In this document: positions 10,956 to 17,856 of the stretch, piece after piece
Numbering within the stretch: position 1 is the first letter of the stretch
Layout: each line of letters starts with the position of its first letter
Assembly: GCA_965220965.1 (NCBI GenBank)
Contig: OZ244852.1
Span: forward strand, 1,792,001 to 1,856,000
Origin: Candidatus Marinacidobacterium sp.
GTDB taxonomy: Bacteria > Acidobacteriota > Vicinamibacteria > Marinacidobacterales > Marinacidobacteraceae
DNA length: 64,000 nucleotides
Direction: 5' to 3'
The notes under the pieces: model-generated
What the model saw: only the letters and a program-made list of their open reading frames with translations
What the model was told of the DNA's origin: nothing
Database searches by the model: none
Translations under genes and position numbers: made by a program

Positions 10956-11480
10956 ATGTGGACGCATCCGAAGCCCGGCGAAGCGCCGAACTACTACCTG
11001 GGGGCGGCGCGGCTCGTCCCCGAAGGCGACCTTCCCGGCGCGGCGGTGGCCGAGATGGCGACGCTGCGGTCGCGGCTCGCCGGGCTGGGCGAGGAAGACG
11101 CGAACACCGGCTACGCGCCCGGCAAGTGGTCGGTGAAGGAGGTCGTCGGGCACCTCGCCGACGTCGAGCGGCTCTTCGCCTTCCGGATGCTCCATGTGGC
11201 CCGCCGGGATCCGGCGCCGCTTCCGGCGATGGACCAGGACCAGTGGGCGGAAGCGGCGCGGCACGCCGACCGCAGCCTCGGGTCACTCCTCGATGAGCTG
11301 GACACGGTGCGGGCGGCGACGGTGAGCCTGCTGTCAACGCTCGACGAGGCGGCGCTCGACGCCGCCGGGGAGGCCAGCGGCAACCGGGTTACGGTGCGGG
11401 CGATGGCGTGGTTCGCTGTGGGGCACGCGATCCACCACCGAAGGATCCTCGAAAAGCGCTACCCGGGCGTCGGCGGCTGA
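10956..11480 (+). CDS. DinB family protein
   Basis: YAPGKWSVKEVVGHL and GHAIHH motifs. Confidence 0.85.
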   Translation: MWTHPKPGEAPNYYLGAARLVPEGDLPGAAVAEMATLRSRLAGLGEEDANTGYAPGKWSVKEVVGHLADVERLFAFRMLHVARRDPAPLPAMDQDQWAEAARHADRSLGSLLDELDTVRAATVSLLSTLDEAALDAAGEASGNRVTVRAMAWFAVGHAIHHRRILEKRYPGVGG

Positions 11481-12708
11481 CCCCCCGGGCCCGCCCGAGA
11501 AACAGCGCGGCGGCGACCGCCAGGCTCCCCAGCAGCGCGGCGGCGCCTGCCACCGCCCCGAACCCGAGGCGGTTCATCAGCAGACCGGAAGCGACGCTGG
11601 CGAGCGCCGCGACCGACCAGTTCAGCGAGTCGGCGCGCCCCTGCCGGCGAACCTTGACGGGGGTGTTCGGGCCTCGGGCGAGCAGCGCGCTCGCCGCCAC
11701 GAACCCGAAACACCAGCCGAGGCCCAGCAGGTAGAGGGCGAACCCCATGAGCGCCCCGGCCTCGAGCGGCGCGACCGCGCCGAGGATCCCGGACGCGGTG
11801 AGCAGCAGGCCGCCCACCGCGATCATCGCGCGCTCGCCGAACCGATCCGAGAGCACGCCCACCAGCGGCGAGAGCAGGAACATCCCGAGGGTGTGCGCGC
11901 CCATGATCGCGCCCAGTCCGGTCAGCGTCCCGCCCGCCGCGACGACCTGCACCGGCGTCATCGTCATCATGACCATCATCGCGGCGTGGGCCGAGACCAT
12001 GCCGACGACCCCCAGCGCGATCTCGCCCGGGGGCGGCCCGTCATCCGGCGCCGCCGGCTCGCCGGACGCGGCGGGGGGTGGAAGCGACGCTGACGCCGGT
12101 CCGAAGGCGCGCCGGACGCGGAGCGCGCGGCTCGCGAGGAAGAGGACCGCGACCGAGGCGTAGAGCGCCGCCGAGACCAGATACGTCAGGCCGATGGCGC
12201 TGTCCCCCACCGAAGCGGCGAGGCGCTCGATCCAGGAGAAGACGAAGGGCGCCGCGAAGCTGGCGGCGACCGCCGCCCAGACCACCAGCCCGACCGCGCG
12301 TCCCCGGCGGTGCGGCGGGACGAGCAGCGCGGCGGCGTAGCGGACCAGGTGGTAGGCGGCGTAGCCGGCGCCGAGAAGCAGGCAGCTCAGGACGAAGGGG
12401 CCGAAGGCCTCGCGGCCGGCGAAGACGGAGGCCCCCACGCAGGCGAGCGCGGTGACCGCGAAGCCGAGCGCCAGCGCCGGGATCCGGCCGATGCGGGGGA
12501 TGAGCCAGGAGAGCGCCGGCGCGCCGAAGGCGACGCCGACGATCAGCGAGGCGTTCGGAACGCCGATCCAGGCCGAGCCGGAGAGGAACCGCTCGGCGAG
12601 GACCGGAGTGACGGTGATGACCAGCAGGTAGGCGGTCGATCCGAGCACCGCCCCCAGCAGGAGGACGCCGAGCGCGCGGGAGGGCCGGGGGCGGGCGGCG
12701 CGAACCAC
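11389..12708 (-). CDS. MFS transporter
   Basis: About 12 hydrophobic segments, GVLSDRFG motif A; 3' end overlaps the DinB gene. Confidence 0.85.
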   Translation of the reverse strand: MVRAARPRPSRALGVLLLGAVLGSTAYLLVITVTPVLAERFLSGSAWIGVPNASLIVGVAFGAPALSWLIPRIGRIPALALGFAVTALACVGASVFAGREAFGPFVLSCLLLGAGYAAYHLVRYAAALLVPPHRRGRAVGLVVWAAVAASFAAPFVFSWIERLAASVGDSAIGLTYLVSAALYASVAVLFLASRALRVRRAFGPASASLPPPAASGEPAAPDDGPPPGEIALGVVGMVSAHAAMMVMMTMTPVQVVAAGGTLTGLGAIMGAHTLGMFLLSPLVGVLSDRFGERAMIAVGGLLLTASGILGAVAPLEAGALMGFALYLLGLGWCFGFVAASALLARGPNTPVKVRRQGRADSLNWSVAALASVASGLLMNRLGFGAVAGAAALLGSLAVAAALFLGRARGVSRRRPGSAFRGSFGGGSRAPQRTTPSPAP

Positions 12709-12714
12709 GGGCGC

Positions 12715-13854
12715 TCAGTTGCCGGCGGTCAGCAGGCGCTGGAGGCCGGCGAGCGCGCGGCGCGCCTCGGGAGCGAGCGGAGCGCCATCGCCGAGGGCGC
12801 GGCGGTCCTCCTCGCCGAGCCCGAACTCGGCGGCGATGGCGCGGAACTCGGACACGACGTCGTCGTTCGGGTCGGCGCGCCAGGCGCCCGGGACGAGGCG
12901 CAGCTCGTGGAGCGGAGGAGCGCCCCCGCCCTGACCCGTTCCGGAGACCGCTCCGCCGGAGGCCGCCTGGACCCGGTCGCGGTAGGCCAGCACCTCGGGG
13001 AGCACCCAGTCGTCGAGGGTTCCGACGACCTCGATGACCGGGATCCGGAGTTCGGCGGAGAGCGCGGGAAGCTCGGGGGTGGGGTTCGCGTTCACCGCGT
13101 CGTGGAAGGGCCAGAATGCGCCGCCCTCGGCGGGGACGCCGGCGGCTTCGGCGTAGGCGGCGAAGCCGGCCTCCGATGCGCCGCGGTCCTCCGCAAGCGC
13201 AAGCCGGGCGGCCTGGCGGCGAACCGCGCCCGCCGGGTCGCCCAGCGTGGCGGAGACCAGCACCGCCCCCGCGAAGATCTCGTCCTCGGCCACCGCCGCC
13301 TGGCGGGCGATGCCGCCGCCCTCGCCGTAACCGAACAGGATCACCCGGTCGGGGTCGCGCGCTAGACGCGGGCGAATCTGGTCGAACATGAGCCGGGCGA
13401 AGGCCTCGGTGAGGCGAAGCGCGCCCCCGGCGTCCCCGAGCCCGGCGCGGTCGAAGCTGGCCCACGCGAAGCCCTCGTCGAGCGCCCACCAGCCGATGAG
13501 GTCGTCGAGCCCGGTCTCTCCGGCGCCGAGTTCGGCCCCGTCCTCGCCCCGGCGGATCCCGCCCACCCCACGGTGCGCGCCGATGACCAGCGTCCCGTTC
13601 CAGTCGGGGGGCCGCAGCGGGTGGCGGAGCACGAAGCGGCGGGGGGGTTCGCCGGGGGGCAGCGCCCGGCCGGGGGGCACCGAGGCGACGATGCCCTGCA
13701 CGGTGAGGGCGTCGCCGTAGGCGCGGCCCGGGAGCAGGGTCTCGCGCCCTCCGTGGATGTAGAGGTGGAGCCGGGCGTCGCACCCGGTCAGGAGGACGAG
13801 GAAGGCCGGGAGGAGCAGACCCGGCCACCCGCTGCGAGCCGGCGCCCGGGCACA
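12715..13854 (-). CDS. Lipoprotein with alpha/beta hydrolase (tannase-like) fold; start unresolved
   Basis: Frame of ORF 12715-13701 extends upstream through GLLLPAFLVLLTGC lipobox; WNG.L motif; nucleophile elbow reads GYGEGG. Confidence 0.6.
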   Translation of the reverse strand, partial: CARAPARSGWPGLLLPAFLVLLTGCDARLHLYIHGGRETLLPGRAYGDALTVQGIVASVPPGRALPPGEPPRRFVLRHPLRPPDWNGTLVIGAHRGVGGIRRGEDGAELGAGETGLDDLIGWWALDEGFAWASFDRAGLGDAGGALRLTEAFARLMFDQIRPRLARDPDRVILFGYGEGGGIARQAAVAEDEIFAGAVLVSATLGDPAGAVRRQAARLALAEDRGASEAGFAAYAEAAGVPAEGGAFWPFHDAVNANPTPELPALSAELRIPVIEVVGTLDDWVLPEVLAYRDRVQAASGGAVSGTGQGGGAPPLHELRLVPGAWRADPNDDVVSEFRAIAAEFGLGEEDRRALGDGAPLAPEARRALAGLQRLLTAGN

Positions 13855-14114
13855 AAAAAGCCCCGGGACCCCTGCTGGGCCATCCGGCCGCTCCGCGGCG
13901 CGAGACCCGAGCGGCCGACGGAGAAACCGCCGACGCCGCTCCGGGAGGGTTCCGCCGCCGCCTGGAATCGTGGTCAGGGTCCCGGGAACTCGTCCGTTCT
14001 TTCCGGACCCGGGGGGAGTGGGAAGGACCTCAATCCCCCGCCCCGGGTCCGTAAGCGAAGTCGTCCGGCGGAGCCATGTTTCCGACCTCCTTGCGGGCTG
14101 CGGGCTGCGTTGGT
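13854..14114 (-). ncRNA. Candidate structured RNA or regulatory leader
   Basis: Lies between a near-consensus promoter and a U6 tract; several perfect 9-11 bp stems. Confidence 0.5.
14030..14077 (-). CDS. Putative leader micro-peptide MAPPDDFAYGPGAGD
   Basis: AAGGAGG SD (14086-14092) 8 nt before ATG; 15 codons plus TGA. Confidence 0.45.
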   Translation of the reverse strand: MAPPDDFAYGPGAGD

Positions 14115-14120
14115 GAGTTC

Positions 14121-14149
14121 GTTATACAGCGGTGCGGGCGGCGGGTCAA
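14121..14149 (-). promoter_or_regulatory. Sigma70-type promoter
   Basis: TTGACC-17 nt-TATAAC on the minus strand. Confidence 0.75.
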
Positions 14150-14171: not shown

Positions 14172-16013
14172 TCACTCCAGCGAACCGTGGACGACCTCGC
14201 CCGAAACAAGCGTGGCGAGGACCCGCTCGCGCATCGTGAAGAGGAGGTCGGGGTCCTCCTCGAGCGCGTCGAGCGAGGGGAGGTCGAGCACCACGAGGTC
14301 GGCCAGCTTGCCGGGTTCGAGGCTGCCGCGCTCCTCGTCATCGTGGGTCAGCCAGGCGCCGTTCCAGGTGTAGGAGCGAAGCGCCTCCGCGACGGTCACG
14401 GTCTCCTCTTCGCCCCAGGAGACGCCGGACTTCTGGTCCTTGCGGGTGAGCAGCGCGAAGAAGCCCATCCACGGGTCGTGGGTGGTGACCCCGTAGTCGG
14501 AGCCCGAGGCCATGATGACGCCGCTGCGCATGTAGGTGCGGAAGGGCTGGAGGCGGGCCATCCGCTCGGGCCCCGAGTTCGCCGCAAAGGAGAAGCCCTG
14601 CTGCCAGTTGAACACCGGGTTGGTGGCGGCGACGATGCCGTAGCGGGCCATGTCCTCGAGGACCCGGGTCTTCGGCTCGATGGGGAAGTAGGCGTGGATC
14701 ACGCTCCAGCGGAGGTCGGGGATCTCGCCGGTCTCCTCCGTCATCTCGTCGAGCAGCTTCATGTAGAGGTCCACCGCCTGGCGCATCGCCTGGTCCCCGC
14801 AACTGTGGGTGTGGAGATCCCAGCCGTGGGCGCGGATCGCCCGGTACTGCGCCTCGCGCACTCCGTAGTCGCGCACGACCGGGTTCCCGAGGTTCTGCTC
14901 GCCCTCGAGTTCGTCCCAGAGGTGGAACGGCTCGGACATCCAGGCGCTCCTGGTCCCCACGCCGCCGTCCCCGTAGACCTTGACGCCCCGCCAGCGGAGG
15001 AACGGGTCGCCCAGGTTGTTCACCTTGATCCCGTCGAGATGCCCGGCGATGTCCTCCGGCGGGTGGGTGTTGAAGGTCCCCTCGTAGACCGCCGCGATCC
15101 GCAGGCGAAGGAGGCCGCGGTTCGCCGCCTCCTGGTAGACGCGCATGTGGTGGCCCATCCGGGAGGAGGGGTCCACGATCGCGGTCACGCCCAGCGAGAG
15201 CAGTTCGGCGATCCCGAGGCGGACGCTCTCCACCTCGTCCTCGAAGTCCTCCGGCGGCGGCCGCTCGGTGACGAGGCGGGAGCCGCGGGCCCCGAGGAAG
15301 ACCCCGGTGGGGATCTCGCGGGTCACCCGCTCGCCGTCGAGCAGGACCTCGCGCGGCGCGCGCTGGATCTGGTCCTCGAAGGTGAAGTCGTCCGGATCCT
15401 CGAGCCACCACCCGGGCCAGGTGGAGGCGTCGTCATCCTCGATCCCCATCCGGCGGAACACCTCGGTGTTCACCGCGACGCCGCGGTAGACCCGGTAGAG
15501 CGCGACCGGGTTGCCGGGCGCCACCTCGTCGAGCTGCCAGCGGGTGACCATCGCCGGGTACTTGAACTGGTCCCAGCGCCGGCCGACGATCCACTCGTTC
15601 CGGACGGTCTCCGGCTCCCGCTCGCGCTGCTCCAGCCGGGCCCGGACGGCTTCCACGATGTCCTCGGCGGTCTCGGCGTAGCTGAGCTCGACGCCCCGGG
15701 TGATGTCGTTGCCGAGCGGCAGGAAGTGGATGTGGGAGTCCTGGAGCCCGGGGATGATCGTCTTCCCGGCGAGGTCCACGGTCCTCGTGTTCGGTCCGGC
15801 GAGCGCCGCCATCTCCGCGCCCGAGCCCACGCCCACGATCCGGTCGTCCTTGATCGCCAGCGCTTCCGCCAGCGAGTCCCCGGCGTCCACCGTCCGGACC
15901 TCGGCGCCGGTCAGGATGAGGTCCGGCTCCGGATACCACTGGGCCGCCGCCAGCGGGGGGAGGCCGGCGAGCGCGAGAAGGACGAGACAGGCCGCAGCGA
16001 GAGTTCGGGACAT
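14172..16013 (-). CDS. Amidohydrolase family 3 (YtcJ-like), secreted
   Basis: Signal peptide; PGLQDSHIH, K.YGDG, HSCGD, GSLEPGKLAD motifs. Confidence 0.9.
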   Translation of the reverse strand: MSRTLAAACLVLLALAGLPPLAAAQWYPEPDLILTGAEVRTVDAGDSLAEALAIKDDRIVGVGSGAEMAALAGPNTRTVDLAGKTIIPGLQDSHIHFLPLGNDITRGVELSYAETAEDIVEAVRARLEQREREPETVRNEWIVGRRWDQFKYPAMVTRWQLDEVAPGNPVALYRVYRGVAVNTEVFRRMGIEDDDASTWPGWWLEDPDDFTFEDQIQRAPREVLLDGERVTREIPTGVFLGARGSRLVTERPPPEDFEDEVESVRLGIAELLSLGVTAIVDPSSRMGHHMRVYQEAANRGLLRLRIAAVYEGTFNTHPPEDIAGHLDGIKVNNLGDPFLRWRGVKVYGDGGVGTRSAWMSEPFHLWDELEGEQNLGNPVVRDYGVREAQYRAIRAHGWDLHTHSCGDQAMRQAVDLYMKLLDEMTEETGEIPDLRWSVIHAYFPIEPKTRVLEDMARYGIVAATNPVFNWQQGFSFAANSGPERMARLQPFRTYMRSGVIMASGSDYGVTTHDPWMGFFALLTRKDQKSGVSWGEEETVTVAEALRSYTWNGAWLTHDDEERGSLEPGKLADLVVLDLPSLDALEEDPDLLFTMRERVLATLVSGEVVHGSLE

Positions 16014-16122
16014 GGCGGTTCCGATGGTACCGGCCCGGCGGGGTTGCCGGACGGGGCTGGCGCGTGGCTCACGCGGGGCCTCGCGATACCCTGCCCCTCC
16101 GTCAGGAAACGGAGGAGTCTCC

Positions 16123-17856
16123 ATGCGCCATCGAATCCACCTGCCGCTCGTTCCGCTCGCCGTCGCCCTGCTCGCCGGGTGCGGCGCCACCGGGCCGGAC
16201 ATCGGCGGCCCCGCCGACCTCGTGCTCCTCGGAGGGCGGGTCGTGACCGTCGACCCGGCCCACCCCGAAGCCGAGGCGGTCGCGGTGAAGGACGGGCTGG
16301 TCGCGGCGCTCGGGACGACCGCCGAGATCCGCCAGACCGTGGGGCCGGAGACCGAGGTCATCGAACTGGAGGGCCGTCTCGCCATCCCCGGGTTCATCGA
16401 AGGGCACGGCCATTTCCTCGGCGTCGGCAACGCCCAGATGATCCTGAAGCTGGGTGAATCGGAGAACTGGAACCGGATCGTCGACCAGGTCGCCGAAGCG
16501 GTGGCGGAGGCGGCGCCGGGAACCTGGATCGAGGGCCGCGGCTGGCACCAGGAGAAGTGGGACGAGGTTCCGGGGGGAGCGGTCGAGGGGCTGCCGCACC
16601 ACCTCGGGCTCTCCGAGATCTCCCCCGAGAACCCGGTCTTGCTGCGCCACGCCAGCGGGCACGCCGCGTTCGCGAACGCGCTGGCGATGGAGCTCGCCGG
16701 CATCGACCGGAGCACGCCGGATCCACCCGGCGGGACGATCGTGCGGGACGCCGACGGGCGGGCGACCGGGGCGCTCCGGGAGACCGCGCAGGGCCTGGTG
16801 GCGCGCGCCCGCGACCGGGCGATGGCGGAGCGGAGCCCCGAAGAGCAGCGGGCGGAGCTGGAGCTCATGGTGAAGCTCGCGGCGGAGGAGTCCCTCGCCA
16901 AGGGGGTGACCAGCTTCCAGGACGCCGGCTCCTCGTTCGCCTCGATCGACCTCTTCCGCGAGATGGCGGAGGAGGGGCGCCTCCCCATCCGGCTCTATGT
17001 CATGGTGCGGGGCGAGTCGCACGAGGACATGGACGCCCGCCTCGGCGACTACTTCCTCGACAACCACGCGGACGGCTTCCTGACCGTCCGGTCCATCAAG
17101 ACGGTGGTGGACGGCGCGCTCGGGGCCCACGGCGCGTGGCTGCTCGAGCCCTACGACGACATGCCGTCGAGCGAGGGGCTGGTGCTCCAGCCGGTCGAGG
17201 ACATCGAGGAGACGGCGCGCATCGGCGTGCGGCACGGGTTCCAGGTGAACACCCACGCGATCGGGGACCGCGGCAACCGGGAGGTGCTCGATCTCTACGA
17301 GCGGGTCTTCGAGGAGGCCGGCGTCTCGGGCCATGACCTCAGGTTCCGGATCGAGCACGCCCAGCACATCCACCCGGACGACATCCCCCGGTTCGGCCAG
17401 ATCGGGGTGATCGCCTCGATGCAGGCGGTCCACGCCACCTCGGACGGGCCGTGGGTTCCGGAGAAGCTGGGCGACTGGCGGGCGGAGACCGGCGCCTACG
17501 TCTGGCGCTCGCTCCTCGACAGCGGCGCGGTGGTGACGAACGGGACGGACGCCCCGGTCGAGGACGTGGACCCGATCGCGAGCTACCACGCGACGGTGAC
17601 GCGGGAACTGAACGATGGAACCCGGTTCTACCCGGAACAGGCGATGACCCGGGAGGAGGCGCTCCACTCCTACACGATGGCCAACGCGTTCGCGGCGTTC
17701 GAGGAGGGCGTGAAGGGCAGCCTGACCCCGGGCAAGTACGCCGACATCGTGGTCCTGACGAAGGACATCCTGAGCGTCCCGGAAGACGAGATCCTCCAGG
17801 CCCGCCCCGCGCTCACCATCGTGGCCGGGGAAGTCGTCCACCGGCTGGAGGAATAG
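16123..17856 (+). CDS. Amidohydrolase family 3 (YtcJ-like), lipoprotein
   Basis: LLAGC lipobox; [30 protein letters not shown] motifs; SD GGAGGAG. Confidence 0.9.

What the first reader, a model, noticed from the sequence alone, without database searches (positions are those of the whole stretch)
13854..14149. Strong promoter ahead of a ~260-nt structured RNA with a micro-ORF and switchable hairpins
Seen (minus strand): TTGACC-N17-TATAAC, the best promoter match I found in the window, then AAGGAGG-N8-ATG encoding MAPPDDFAYGPGAGD. An 11-bp stem (14004-14014 with 14041-14051) has its 5' arm inside the micro-ORF. It excludes an alternative GTCCG/CGGAC stem (14004-14008 with 13992-13996). A 10-bp long-range stem (13977-13986 with 13862-13871) closes a domain holding a perfect 9-bp hairpin (13885-13917) and is followed by U6. 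I count about 12 GGA motifs by hand. I recognise no known riboswitch or housekeeping RNA. Inference: either a ribosome-controlled attenuator or leader for the downstream hydrolase-MFS genes, or a standalone dual-function sRNA, possibly a CsrA-type sponge.
Basis: partly seen in the sequence, partly recalled or inferred. Interest (0 to 1): 0.78.

Follow-up and report, generated by a model that had tools for sequence, protein, structure and literature searches.

The report
Proline-rich micro-ORF leader controlling a hydrolase operon
This is a conserved, previously undescribed 260-base leader RNA that combines a tiny translated gene (Met-Ala-Pro-Pro-Asp-Asp-Phe...) with a branched terminator-like fold, and it most likely lets ribosome progress decide whether a downstream lipoprotein hydrolase and transporter are made.

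Summary
Comparison shows most of them are real.

- **Distribution.** The element is single-copy in 27 of 28 genomes of one family. Named records are titled Acidobacteria, Vicinamibacteria or Ca. Marinacidobacterium. It always lies directly upstream of the same lipoprotein alpha/beta-hydrolase gene.
- **Conserved parts.** A TTGACA-N17/18-TAcAAa promoter is present in 27 of 27 unique leaders. Also conserved are a strong Shine-Dalgarno site, a micro-ORF beginning M-(x)-A-P-P-D-D-F, hairpin A, and a 15-bp long-range helix P1.
- **Fold.** P1 closes a three-way junction and is followed by a U-rich tail in 23 of 26 leaders.
- **Covariation.** It supports helix A and P1: 95% of cells are paired, and 17 pairs carry double changes against 7.4 in shuffles.
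- **Link to the hydrolase gene.** P1 either contains the gene's ribosome-binding site or encloses its AUG.
- **Databases.** There is no Rfam match. Ms1 synteny is absent and no CsrA gene was found.

Best reading (confidence about 0.6): a cis-acting, ribosome-controlled attenuator and translational gate for the hydrolase(-MFS) operon. No transcript data exist, and the polarity of control is inferred. I class it as a new variant of a known kind.

The parts
14144..14149 (-). -35 box TTGACC
   Evidence: TTGACA-like box present in 27 of 27 unique leaders of relatives; spacer is 17-18 nt in 26 of them and 19 nt in one.
14121..14126 (-). -10 box TATAAC; transcription start inferred near 14114
   Evidence: TA(C/T/A)A(A/C)N conserved in 27 of 27. 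The start site is inferred, not measured.
14086..14092 (-). Shine-Dalgarno AAGGAGG of the micro-ORF
   Evidence: The GGRGGT columns are invariant in alignment A1.
14030..14077 (-). Micro-ORF MAPPDDFAYGPGAGD plus stop codon
   Evidence: ATG, Pro-Pro and the first Asp are present in 27 of 27 leaders. Third-position changes keep Ala, Pro, Asp and Phe.
14041..14051 (-). Helix A, 5' strand (inside the micro-ORF)
   Evidence: 6 of 7 aligned pairs show changes on both sides.
14004..14014 (-). Helix A, 3' strand. It overlaps the 5' arm of the weak alternative hairpin 14008-14004 with 13996-13992.
13976..13991 (-). P1, 5' strand (GAGUUCCCGGGACCCU)
   Evidence: 99% of cells are paired and 6 pairs carry compensatory changes.
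13892..13966 (-). P2, the long variable arm of the three-way junction
   Evidence: MFE fold of the window. The same architecture is found in 26 of 26 leaders folded one by one. The base of P2 covaries.
13874..13891 (-). P3 hairpin. It holds AUG 13883-13881, the counterpart of the hydrolase start codon of most genera.
13858..13872 (-). P1, 3' strand (GGGGUCCCGGGGCUU). Its GGGG lies 9-10 nt ahead of GUG 13853-13851.
13854..13859 (-). U6 tail after P1 (terminator-like)
   Evidence: It is the only T6/A6 run in the 64-kb window. A U-rich tail follows P1 in 23 of 26 leaders.
12715..13782 (-). Lipoprotein alpha/beta-hydrolase, from the lipobox Cys to the stop codon; the regulated gene
   Evidence: The lipobox LLTGC is read.
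11389..12708 (-). MFS transporter, second gene of the operon
   Evidence: Pfam MFS_1, E 1.2e-17. It follows the hydrolase in 17 of the first 20 loci.

Best explanation
The region is the 5' leader of a lipoprotein alpha/beta-hydrolase(-MFS) operon. It works as a ribosome-controlled attenuator and translational gate.

**Components**
- A conserved sigma-70-type promoter starts an RNA near 14114.
- The RNA first offers a strong ribosome-binding site and a micro-ORF whose opening codons are fixed as Met-(x)-Ala-Pro-Pro-Asp-Asp-Phe.
- Downstream lies hairpin A/B, whose 5' strand sits inside the micro-ORF.
- Next comes a three-way junction. Its 15-bp closing helix P1 is followed by a U-run.
- P1 either carries the Shine-Dalgarno of the hydrolase gene or encloses its AUG.

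**Default state (inferred)**
A/B and P1 both fold. Transcription stops at the U-run, and the start region of any read-through RNA is masked. This is OFF.

**Switching (inferred)**
- A ribosome that translates the micro-ORF efficiently covers the 5' strand of helix A. The freed 3' strand can then pair with the 5' strand of P1.
- In 18 of 26 leaders the ribosome instead runs into the 5' strand of P1 itself and stops at a UGA/UAG at its 3' end.
- Either way P1 cannot close. RNA polymerase reads through and the hydrolase start is open. This is ON.

**Sensor (inferred)**
The hard-to-translate Ala-Pro-Pro-Asp-Asp at the very N-terminus sets the ribosome's pace. Output would therefore report the cell's capacity to make Pro-Pro-Asp bonds. 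That capacity could depend on EF-P activity, prolyl- or aspartyl-tRNA supply, or ribosome stability on short acidic/prolyl chains.

**Shown versus inferred**
- Shown: conservation, covariation, and the geometry of the stop and start codons.
- Inferred: transcription start and end, translation of the micro-ORF, stalling, and the polarity. I put stall = OFF at about 55:45.
For: 1. **Linkage.** The motif is present in 27 of 28 family genomes, single-copy at the syntenic site. The one miss is a 66%-complete genome.
   - Covariance model R1 of the 3' domain hits 25 of 26 other family genomes plus the window's own genome. Among 124 genomes of other families of the class it gives only two borderline hits, E 0.005 and 0.009.
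   - The element stays with the hydrolase when a NYN-domain gene is inserted upstream and when the upstream gene is different.
2. **Promoter.** Conserved in 27 of 27 unique leaders.
3. **Micro-ORF**.
   - ATG 27/27, Pro-Pro 27/27, first Asp 27/27, Ala 26/27, second Asp 22/27, Phe 21/27.
   - The variation is mainly synonymous: GCA/GCT/GCG, CCG/CCA, GAC/GAT, TTT/TTC.
   - In the window's genus the ATG moved and one codon was lost, yet the frame to CCG-CCG-GAC was kept.
   - SD columns are invariant.
4. **Structure**.
   - 95.0% of 819 cells are paired, against 61% when the partner is slid by one column.
   - 17 of 32 pairs change on both sides, against 7.4 +/- 1.6 in shuffles (0 of 500 reach it).
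   - P1 is 99% paired.
   - All 26 leaders fold on their own into the same P1/P2/P3 junction despite P2 lengths of about 17 to about 100 nt.
5. **Terminator-like tail.** At least 4 U in 8 nt in 23 of 26 leaders. The window's U6 is the only such run in 64 kb.
6. **The hydrolase start lies in or at P1.** Gene calls in relatives begin MRPxxxxGTPGLF, which is the AUG in J2/3 followed by P3, the P1 3' strand and the U-run. Others begin directly after P1, with GGGG/GGGAG of P1 as the SD.
7. **Micro-ORF stop codon.**
   - In 18 of 26 leaders it sits at the 3' end of the P1 5' strand (6 nt beyond it in two of them). Six different ORF lengths (18, 26, 33, 40, 41, 42 aa) all stay in frame. One of them results from a 42-nt in-frame deletion.
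   - In the other 8 it sits in the apical loop of hairpin A/B.
8. **2:3 pairing.** The helix A 3' strand pairs with the P1 5' strand at -11 to -20 kcal/mol. That is within the best 8.5% of background windows in 21 of 25 leaders.
9. **Precedent.**
   - A polyproline stall placed upstream of the pyrL terminator raises termination when EF-P is missing (PMC5021804, passages).
   - mgtP, a proline-codon-rich leader ORF, controls mgtCBR by attenuation (PMC3641672, abstract).
Against: - There are no expression data. No RNA run holds the stretch, so the start, the end and the translation are all inferred.
- P1 closes a 100-nt branched domain, which is not the usual shape of an intrinsic terminator. 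The terminator scan did not list it.
- 3 of 26 leaders have a poor or absent U-tail (L008, L009, L005). Termination therefore cannot be the universal read-out.
- The single-sequence fold is not more stable than shuffles (z = -1.16).
- Constrained MFE folds with a ribosome at the PPD site or at the stop codon did not discriminate states.
- The 2:3 pairing is only moderately better than background and fails in 4 of 25 leaders.
- The two stop-codon classes need two different ways of opening P1.
- CCGCCGGAC is almost invariant at the DNA level, so RNA-level constraint on the same bases cannot be separated from peptide constraint.
- The function of the hydrolase and the MFS is unknown, so no physiological logic can be tested.
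- In the window itself the hydrolase frame has no canonical start.
Confidence: 0.6

Rival explanations
1. The three-way junction (P1/P2/P3) is the sensor. It would be a riboswitch aptamer or a binding site for a protein. When stabilised, P1 terminates transcription or masks the hydrolase start. The micro-ORF is an accessory or an independent small gene.
For: - The junction architecture is kept in 26 of 26 leaders while the length of P2 varies freely.
- Junction bases are conserved in alignments A1 and A2: GA(C/U)(C/U)A after the P1 5' strand, (G/C)AUGA before P3, and an invariant A before the P1 3' strand.
- A plain terminator would not need a branched fold.
- The P1 3' strand overlaps the SD or start region, as in translational riboswitches.
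Against: - Most conserved junction bases are also explained by coding features. The UGA in J1/2 is the micro-ORF stop in 16 of 26 leaders, and the AUG in J2/3 is the hydrolase start in most genera.
- There is no Rfam match.
- P2, the largest arm, has no conserved loop or internal loop across genera.
- The downstream genes suggest no ligand.
- This reading does not account for the peptide-like conservation of the micro-ORF start.
Confidence: 0.15
2. It is a standalone, dual-function small RNA of about 260 nt. It ends at the U-run, encodes a 15-42-aa peptide, and acts in trans by base pairing or by sequestering a protein such as CsrA.
For: - It has its own conserved promoter and a terminator-like end.
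- The micro-ORF is conserved.
- 12 GGA motifs are present.
- Five 40-aa gene calls for the ORF exist in public protein sets.
Against: - In most genera the only in-frame canonical start of the hydrolase lies inside the RNA. Read-through is therefore obligatory for hydrolase expression.
- The element is never found away from the hydrolase gene.
- Beyond the first 8 residues the peptide is not conserved, and its length ranges from 15 to 42 aa.
- No CsrA gene was found in the genome.
- The GGA excess is marginal.
Confidence: 0.1
3. It is the local form of a known RNA polymerase-binding RNA (Ms1 or 6S-like), or some other known housekeeping RNA.
For: - The size is similar (about 260-300 nt), the promoter is strong and the fold is extensive.
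- Ms1 homologues are too divergent for sequence search, according to PMC9130861 (passages).
Against: - Ms1 is defined there by flanking HAD-IB hydrolase/'inhibition of morphological differentiation' and oxidoreductase genes, and it occurs in Actinobacteria. Here the flanks are an Amidohydro_3 gene and an alpha/beta-hydrolase in Acidobacteriota.
- There are no 6S, Ms1 or other Rfam hits.
- The fold is a hairpin plus a three-way junction, not a long rod with a central bubble.
- It contains a conserved translated ORF.
Confidence: 0.02

Closest known systems
mgtP / mgtL-type proline-rich leader ORFs of Salmonella mgtCBR and mgtA (PMC3641672, abstract read; the mgtL ribosome-destabilisation work is recalled, not read)
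   Same: - A short ORF in a long leader carries conserved proline codons.
- Its translation is thought to choose between alternative stem-loops and so control transcription into the coding region.
- The Pro/Asp-rich sequence lies close to the N-terminus.
   Different: - There is no sequence or structural homology, and the phylum is different.
- The regulated genes are a lipoprotein hydrolase and an MFS transporter, not Mg2+ transporters.
- The terminator-like helix here closes a three-way junction and overlaps the start of the regulated gene.
- The polarity and the signal are unknown here.
pyrL (pyrBI) coupling attenuator, and the engineered polyproline-pyrL reporter (PMC5021804, passages read)
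   Same: A ribosome following RNA polymerase prevents a terminator hairpin from forming. A polyproline stall upstream increases termination when EF-P is lacking. This matches the polarity I propose.
   Different: - pyrL senses UTP-dependent polymerase pausing.
- Its leader ORF runs through a simple hairpin terminator.
- The proline stall in that study was man-made.
ermC/cat-type translational attenuation (recalled from general knowledge, no paper read here)
   Same: A leader peptide ORF and four pairing segments are present. The last segment holds the SD and start of the regulated gene.
   Different: - Those systems respond to ribosome-bound antibiotics and have no U-run terminator.
- No antibiotic link is evident here.
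RAPP-type arrest peptides ApdA, ApdP and SecM-like (PMC12992588, passages read; PMC10951233 and PMC7897499 seen only in the search listing)
   Same: An Ala-Pro-Pro string occurs in a small upstream ORF that precedes a regulated gene.
   Different: - The essential Arg is missing: 0 of 27 leaders have R before A-P-P, and the AAPP variants are reported as arrest-defective.
- The motif here is N-terminal, not C-terminal.
- The downstream gene is not part of the protein-localisation machinery.

Membership tests
Leader-peptide (ribosome-dependent) transcription attenuator | Short ORF with its own ribosome-binding site early in the leader | tested here: met
   SD GGRGG lies 6-8 nt ahead of the ATG in 27 of 27 leaders. 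Translation itself was not measured.
Leader-peptide (ribosome-dependent) transcription attenuator | Conserved regulatory codons inside the ORF | tested here: met
   Pro-Pro-Asp is present in 27 of 27 leaders and the second Asp in 22 of 27. That these codons are the sensing ones is inferred.
Leader-peptide (ribosome-dependent) transcription attenuator | Mutually exclusive pairings 1:2, 2:3 and 3:4 | tested here: inconclusive
   1:2 (helix A) and 3:4 (P1) are supported by covariation. 2:3 is only energetically plausible, in 21 of 25 leaders. Constrained folds did not discriminate.
Leader-peptide (ribosome-dependent) transcription attenuator | Intrinsic terminator (stem plus U-tract) just ahead of the regulated gene | tested here: inconclusive
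   A 15-bp helix plus a U-rich tail is present in 23 of 26 leaders. However, the stem closes a 50-125-nt branched insert, the terminator scan did not list it, and 3 of 26 lack the tail.
Leader-peptide (ribosome-dependent) transcription attenuator | Condition-dependent termination versus read-through | not testable with these tools
   No RNA run holds the stretch.
Any Rfam 15 family | Covariance-model score at or above the gathering threshold | tested here: not met
   0 matches in the whole window. The best match at E <= 10 is a miRNA model at 24 bits against a gathering score of 79.
Ms1 RNA | Flanking HAD-IB hydrolase and oxidoreductase genes; host is an actinobacterium | tested here: not met
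   PMC9130861 passages. The flanks here are Amidohydro_3 and an alpha/beta-hydrolase, and named relatives are Acidobacteriota.
Ms1 RNA | Binds the RNA polymerase core | not testable with these tools
   This needs an experiment.
RAPP-like arrest peptide | Arg at position -3 of R-A/G-P-P | tested here: not met
   The residue before A-P-P is T, N, S, A or M, and it is never R, in 27 of 27 leaders. AAPP is reported as arrest-defective.
RAPP-like arrest peptide | Motif near the C-terminus of a small secretory or membrane protein | tested here: not met
   The motif occupies residues 2-6 or 3-7 of a 15-42-aa ORF.
CsrA/RsmA-sequestering sRNA | The host encodes CsrA | tested here: not met
   PF02599 was not found in the 94.4%-complete genome, while controls rang in 3 genomes.
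CsrA/RsmA-sequestering sRNA | Many GGA motifs in hairpin loops | tested here: inconclusive
   12 GGA against 8.0 +/- 1.9 in shuffles, with 3.2% of shuffles reaching 12. Loop placement was not analysed.
Riboswitch | Conserved aptamer fold with conserved unpaired bases, and a gene context pointing to a ligand | tested here: inconclusive
   The fold is conserved, but the junction bases double as stop and start codons. The gene functions are unknown.

The most novel reading that the evidence does not exclude
The three-way junction is a device that joins two reading frames in space.

In most genera the micro-ORF stop codon lies in junction strand J1/2. The Shine-Dalgarno-less AUG of the lipoprotein lies in J2/3. 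The two are separated only by the base of the variable hairpin P2.

A ribosome that gets past the N-terminal Ala-Pro-Pro-Asp-Asp hurdle would unzip P1 and terminate at J1/2. It would then be handed across the foot of P2 to start the hydrolase, as a bacterial termination-reinitiation 'shunt'. The same bases also act as terminator and encode the n-region of the signal peptide.

In the window's own lineage the start and the lipobox are out of frame on either side of the genome's rare U6. Expression there might additionally need a -1 shift or a slipped U.
Probability: 0.12. Interest if true: 0.85.

Novelty: new variant of a known kind. Interest (0 to 1): 0.58.

Why it matters
Almost nothing is known about gene regulation in Acidobacteriota, least of all in the uncultured marine Vicinamibacteria. 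This would be a family-wide, sequence-defined regulatory RNA for that group.

It would also be a natural case in which a diprolyl-acidic motif at the very start of a leader peptide is the conserved element. Until now that design has mainly been studied in Salmonella mgt leaders and in engineered EF-P reporters.

Three functions appear to be packed into the same 130 bases: a terminator-like helix, a mask for the ribosome-binding site or start codon, and the coding sequence for a signal-peptide n-region. That makes it a compact test case for how RNA-level and protein-level constraints co-evolve.

The element is short and self-contained. It can be tested in vitro by coupled transcription-translation with and without EF-P, and by toeprinting, without culturing the organism.

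Tried and rejected
**Tried and rejected, or without result**
- **Rfam.** The whole window at gathering score gave nothing. The 801-nt region at E <= 10 gave only miRNA and unrelated sRNA noise.
- **Consensus promoter/terminator scan.** It listed neither the promoter nor P1, because of its own rules.
- **Ms1.** Rejected on synteny and taxon.
- **Hammerhead-like reading of the junction.** Rejected by eye, since J1/2 is CYGAYCA and J2/3 is GAU, and by the lack of any Rfam hit.
- **CsrA sponge.** Rejected.
- **RAPP arrest peptide.** Rejected.
- **Expression.** No RNA holder is listed for the stretch.
- **Reads.** Only DNA contigs could be laid. They were identical to the window, so they give no support for an assembly error at the hydrolase start.
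- **Constrained folding** with a ribosome footprint at the PPD site or at the stop codon did not separate states.
- **Hairpin C (GTCCG/CGGAC).** It is not kept in register in relatives.
- **Hydrolase function.**
  - Pfam and NCBIfam gave only weak sub-threshold hits.
  - There is no PDB sequence relative.
  - The AlphaFold model (pLDDT 91) matches only the generic alpha/beta-hydrolase fold, TM <= 0.48, with esterases and S9/S33 peptidases mixed. No substrate can be named.
- **The 40-aa micro-ORF product of genus g2** has 5 database relatives, all 40 aa and from the same lineage.
- **Metagenome scan with the hydrolase alignment** gave only 2 further loci. Both carry the full element.
- **Literature.** Searches for an Acidobacteria/Vicinamibacteria leader or riboswitch of this kind returned nothing relevant. 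No paper describing this element was found.
- **Not seen.** Supplementary files were not opened. Peil et al. 2013 is not held, so the statement that A-PP-D is a strong EF-P-dependent stall context is recalled, not checked.
- **Correction.** My notebook entry says 20 of 25 for the 2:3 pairing. The correct count is 21 of 25.
Full report
**What is in the window**

On the minus strand an Amidohydro_3 gene ends at 14172 (Pfam E 1.9e-60). About 320 nt further on comes a lipoprotein-type signal sequence (…LLLPAFLVLLTGC, Cys codon 13782-13780). It leads an alpha/beta-hydrolase ORF that ends at 12715. An MFS transporter follows at 12708-11389.

Every item of the finding is present at its coordinates:
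- the promoter-like TTGACC-N17-TATAAC at 14149-14121;
- AAGGAGG-N8-ATG at 14092-14075;
- the micro-ORF at 14077-14030;
- the 11-bp stem;
- the 10-bp long-range stem, which extends to 15 pairs (13991-13976 with 13872-13858);
- the U6 at 13859-13854;
- 12 GGA motifs.

Taken alone the RNA is not unusually stable (z = -1.16). It matches no Rfam family.

**Relatives**

A DNA search of 40 related genomes found the neighbourhood in 24 of 24 genomes of the same family and essentially nowhere else. A degenerate pattern for the SD-ATG-Pro-Pro-Asp core is single-copy in the window's own genome. It is present in 27 of 28 genomes of the family, and the one miss is 66% complete.

The same pattern was scanned over one genome per prokaryotic species.
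- 18 of the 119 have the promoter and SD context.
- The 12 of those whose titles were shown are labelled Acidobacteria/Acidobacteriota, Vicinamibacteria, Vicinamibacteraceae or Ca. Marinacidobacterium. That genus belongs to class Vicinamibacteria.
- The many 23-nt Pseudomonas hits are an unrelated coding sequence.

A covariance model of the 3' domain (R1) finds one copy in 25 of 26 other family genomes and in the window's own genome. In 124 genomes of 18 other families of the class it gives only two borderline hits, E 0.005 and 0.009. Two further copies came from metagenome contigs.

**Which gene it belongs to**

The element always sits directly upstream of the hydrolase gene.
- In two same-genus genomes a 1.2-kb insert with a NYN-domain ORF separates it from the amidohydrolase.
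- In genus g6 and in one metagenome locus the upstream gene is a different one.
- The MFS gene follows the hydrolase in 17 of the first 20 loci.

The element therefore belongs to the hydrolase gene.

**Conserved anatomy**

This rests on 27 unique leaders, 26 of them in alignment A1.

1. *Promoter.* A TTGACA-like -35 box, a 17-18-nt spacer (19 nt in one) and a TA(C/T/A)A(A/C)N -10 box are present in 27 of 27 leaders. The genome is 71% G+C.

2. *Ribosome-binding site.* An invariant GGRGGT lies 6-8 nt ahead of an invariant ATG.

3. *Micro-ORF.* It begins M-(T/N/S/A)-A-P-P-D-D-F.
   - Pro-Pro and the first Asp are present in 27 of 27, Ala in 26, the second Asp in 22 (otherwise E, N or Q), and Phe in 21.
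   - What varies is mostly the third codon position: GCA/GCT/GCG, CCG/CCA, GAC/GAT, TTT/TTC, ACC/ACT/ACA.
   - In the window's genus the ATG has moved 2 nt and one codon is lost. That is a net change of 1 nt, yet ATG remains in frame with CCG-CCG-GAC.
   - This is the pattern expected of a translated peptide. RNA-level constraint on the same bases cannot be ruled out.
   - Beyond residue 8 the peptide is not conserved. Its length is 15-42 aa.

4. *Hairpin A/B.* This imperfect hairpin has its 5' strand inside the micro-ORF.

5. *Three-way junction.* It has a 15-bp closing helix P1, a variable arm P2 (from a 6-bp hairpin to about 100 nt) and a short hairpin P3. Each of the 26 leaders folds into this same shape on its own.

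6. *U-rich tail.* It follows P1 in 23 of 26 leaders. The window's U6 is the only T6/A6 run in 64 kb.

**Covariation**

I counted helix A, P1, the base of P2 and P3 together.
- 95.0% of 819 cells are standard pairs, against 61% when partners are slid by one column.
- 17 of 32 pairs change on both sides, against 7.4 +/- 1.6 in shuffles. None of 500 shuffles reaches any of the five measures.
- P1 is 99% paired with 6 compensatory positions, for example GGGACC/GGUCCC, GGGGUC/GACCCC and GGGAUC/GAUCCC.
- Helix A has 6 of 7 pairs with double changes.

The sequences are related and one genus dominates, so these figures overstate independence. The compensatory changes nevertheless occur between genera.

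- the 9-bp hairpin at 13885-13917, which competes with P2/P3;
- the GTCCG/CGGAC alternative, which keeps only 2-3 pairs in register.

**How the fold meets the coding sequences**

In most genera the hydrolase protein begins MRPxxxxGTPGLF… in gene calls of relatives. Those codons map onto the fold as follows:
- the AUG lies in junction strand J2/3;
- codons 2-6 are P3;
- the next codons are the 3' strand of P1 and the U-run.

No Shine-Dalgarno precedes that AUG (read). In genera g1, g3, g4 and g6 the start is a GUG or AUG 2-17 nt after P1, and the GGGG or GGGAG of the P1 3' strand lies 8-13 nt upstream of it. Either way, a closed P1 buries the translation start region.

The micro-ORF stop codon falls into two classes.
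- In 18 of 26 leaders it is the UGA/UAG at the 3' end of the P1 5' strand (6 nt further on in two). This holds for six ORF lengths (18, 26, 33, 40, 41, 42 aa), including a 42-nt in-frame deletion in L153.
- In the other 8, the window included, it lies in the apical loop of hairpin A/B, 38-50 nt before P1.

**Mechanism**

The hydrolase AUG lies inside the RNA in most genera. The hydrolase message must therefore start at this promoter, and the element is a cis-acting leader.

The arrangement is that of a leader-peptide attenuator joined to a translational gate. It comprises a short ORF, strand 1 (helix A 5' strand) inside the ORF, strand 2 (helix A 3' strand), strand 3 (P1 5' strand), and strand 4 (P1 3' strand plus U-tail plus SD/start).

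Strand 2 can pair with strand 3 at -11 to -20 kcal/mol. That is within the best 8.5% of same-length background windows in 21 of 25 leaders. This is suggestive and no more than that.

I propose the following.
- Without a ribosome on strand 1, or with the ribosome held at Pro-Pro-Asp-Asp further upstream, helices A and P1 form. The operon is then off.
- A ribosome that passes the motif opens P1 in one of two ways. It either frees strand 2 to capture strand 3, or it physically occupies strand 3 up to the stop codon.

In the window and in genus g2 the second Pro codon lies 16-17 nt before the foot of helix A (read from the sequences). That is about where the front edge of a stalled ribosome would sit.

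Published work gives precedent for this polarity and for proline codons as the sensed element:
- polyproline stalls ahead of the pyrL terminator raise termination in the absence of EF-P (PMC5021804, passages);
- proline-pair strength can be read out through the his attenuator (PMC8129111, passages);
- mgtP is a natural proline-codon leader ORF (PMC3641672, abstract);
- acidic N-terminal motifs destabilise early elongation complexes (PMC12856214, passages).

The opposite polarity (stall = ON) is not excluded. I put it at about 45%.

**Rivals**

- *Riboswitch or protein-binding junction.* This is the main rival (0.15). The branched fold and its conserved junction bases exceed what a terminator needs. 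On the other hand, those bases double as stop and start codons, and nothing points to a ligand.
- *Standalone dual-function sRNA* (0.1). It conflicts with the embedded start codon. Terminated leaders could still accumulate.
- *CsrA sponge.* There is no CsrA gene and the GGA excess is marginal.
- *Ms1.* Its synteny and host taxon are wrong.
- *RAPP arrest peptides.* They require an Arg that is never present here.

**What remains unexplained**

In the window's own genome the lipobox frame has no ATG, GTG or TTG anywhere upstream. The AUG in P3 (13883-13881) and the GUG after P1 (13853-13851) are both in the frame that would need a -1 shift to reach it. The unique U6 lies between the AUG and the lipobox.

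Contigs from three runs in two studies are identical to the window, so a simple assembly indel is unlikely. One of those runs may be the source of the assembly.

The closest metagenomic relative also lacks a nearby start (P0002). Three explanations remain open: a decaying start, a non-canonical start, or frameshifting or slippage.

The substrates of the hydrolase and the MFS transporter are unknown.

**Verdict**

The 'CsrA sponge' half is not.
- The element is not in Rfam, and I found no description of it in the literature searches run.
- It is a new variant of a known kind of regulator, restricted to one family of Vicinamibacteria.
- Its unusual traits are a conserved N-terminal Pro-Pro-Asp-Asp micro-ORF and a three-way-junction 'terminator' that also hides, and partly encodes, the start of the regulated lipoprotein.

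Noticed in passing
window 13782-13883 (minus strand): The hydrolase ORF has no canonical start codon in the lipobox frame. The AUG (13883) and GUG (13853) that relatives use are both in the frame that needs a -1 shift to reach it. The only T6 run of the 64-kb window lies between the AUG and the lipobox. Contigs of three runs show no indel.
   Followed up: partly
L002:260-1440 and L007 (same-genus genomes G001, G002): A ~1.2-kb insert carrying a NYN-domain ORF (L002:1002-1430, PF01936, E 2.8e-13) sits between the amidohydrolase gene and the leader. The leader stays with the hydrolase.
   Followed up: partly
L005 (G010), between the leader and the lipobox; proteins P0038-P0042: Tandem duplications of about 130 nt are present. 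They correspond to 166-172-aa Pro/Arg-rich N-terminal extensions ahead of the lipobox in one genus.
   Followed up: no
L153:1466-1950 (G003): A 42-nt in-frame deletion removes the inner part of hairpin A/B but keeps the micro-ORF in frame with the stop at P1. In addition, about 200 nt of foreign-looking sequence is inserted in the signal-peptide region after P1.
   Followed up: no
window 14066-14059 and 13998-13991, and all aligned leaders: The octamer CCGGACGA occurs twice in every leader. One copy forms the Pro-Asp-Asp codons of the micro-ORF. The other lies immediately 5' of P1. This could be a shared pairing partner or a protein site.
   Followed up: no
L010, L013-L016, L018, L022 (genus g2), 30 nt upstream of the micro-ORF: A second mini-frame, AUGACCCAUUCUCGGAAAGGGGGUCGGAAAUGA, ends in a UGA that overlaps the micro-ORF AUG (AUGA). 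It has no SD of its own.
   Followed up: no
L024-L138 (Pseudomonas records): The 23-nt form of the search pattern is a conserved piece of a Pseudomonas coding sequence just behind a signal peptide. It is unrelated to the leader.
   Followed up: partly
window 14172-16988 (minus strand): The listed 938-aa ORF carries its Amidohydro_3 domain only at residues 402-934. The real amidohydrolase probably starts far downstream of the first ATG.
   Followed up: no
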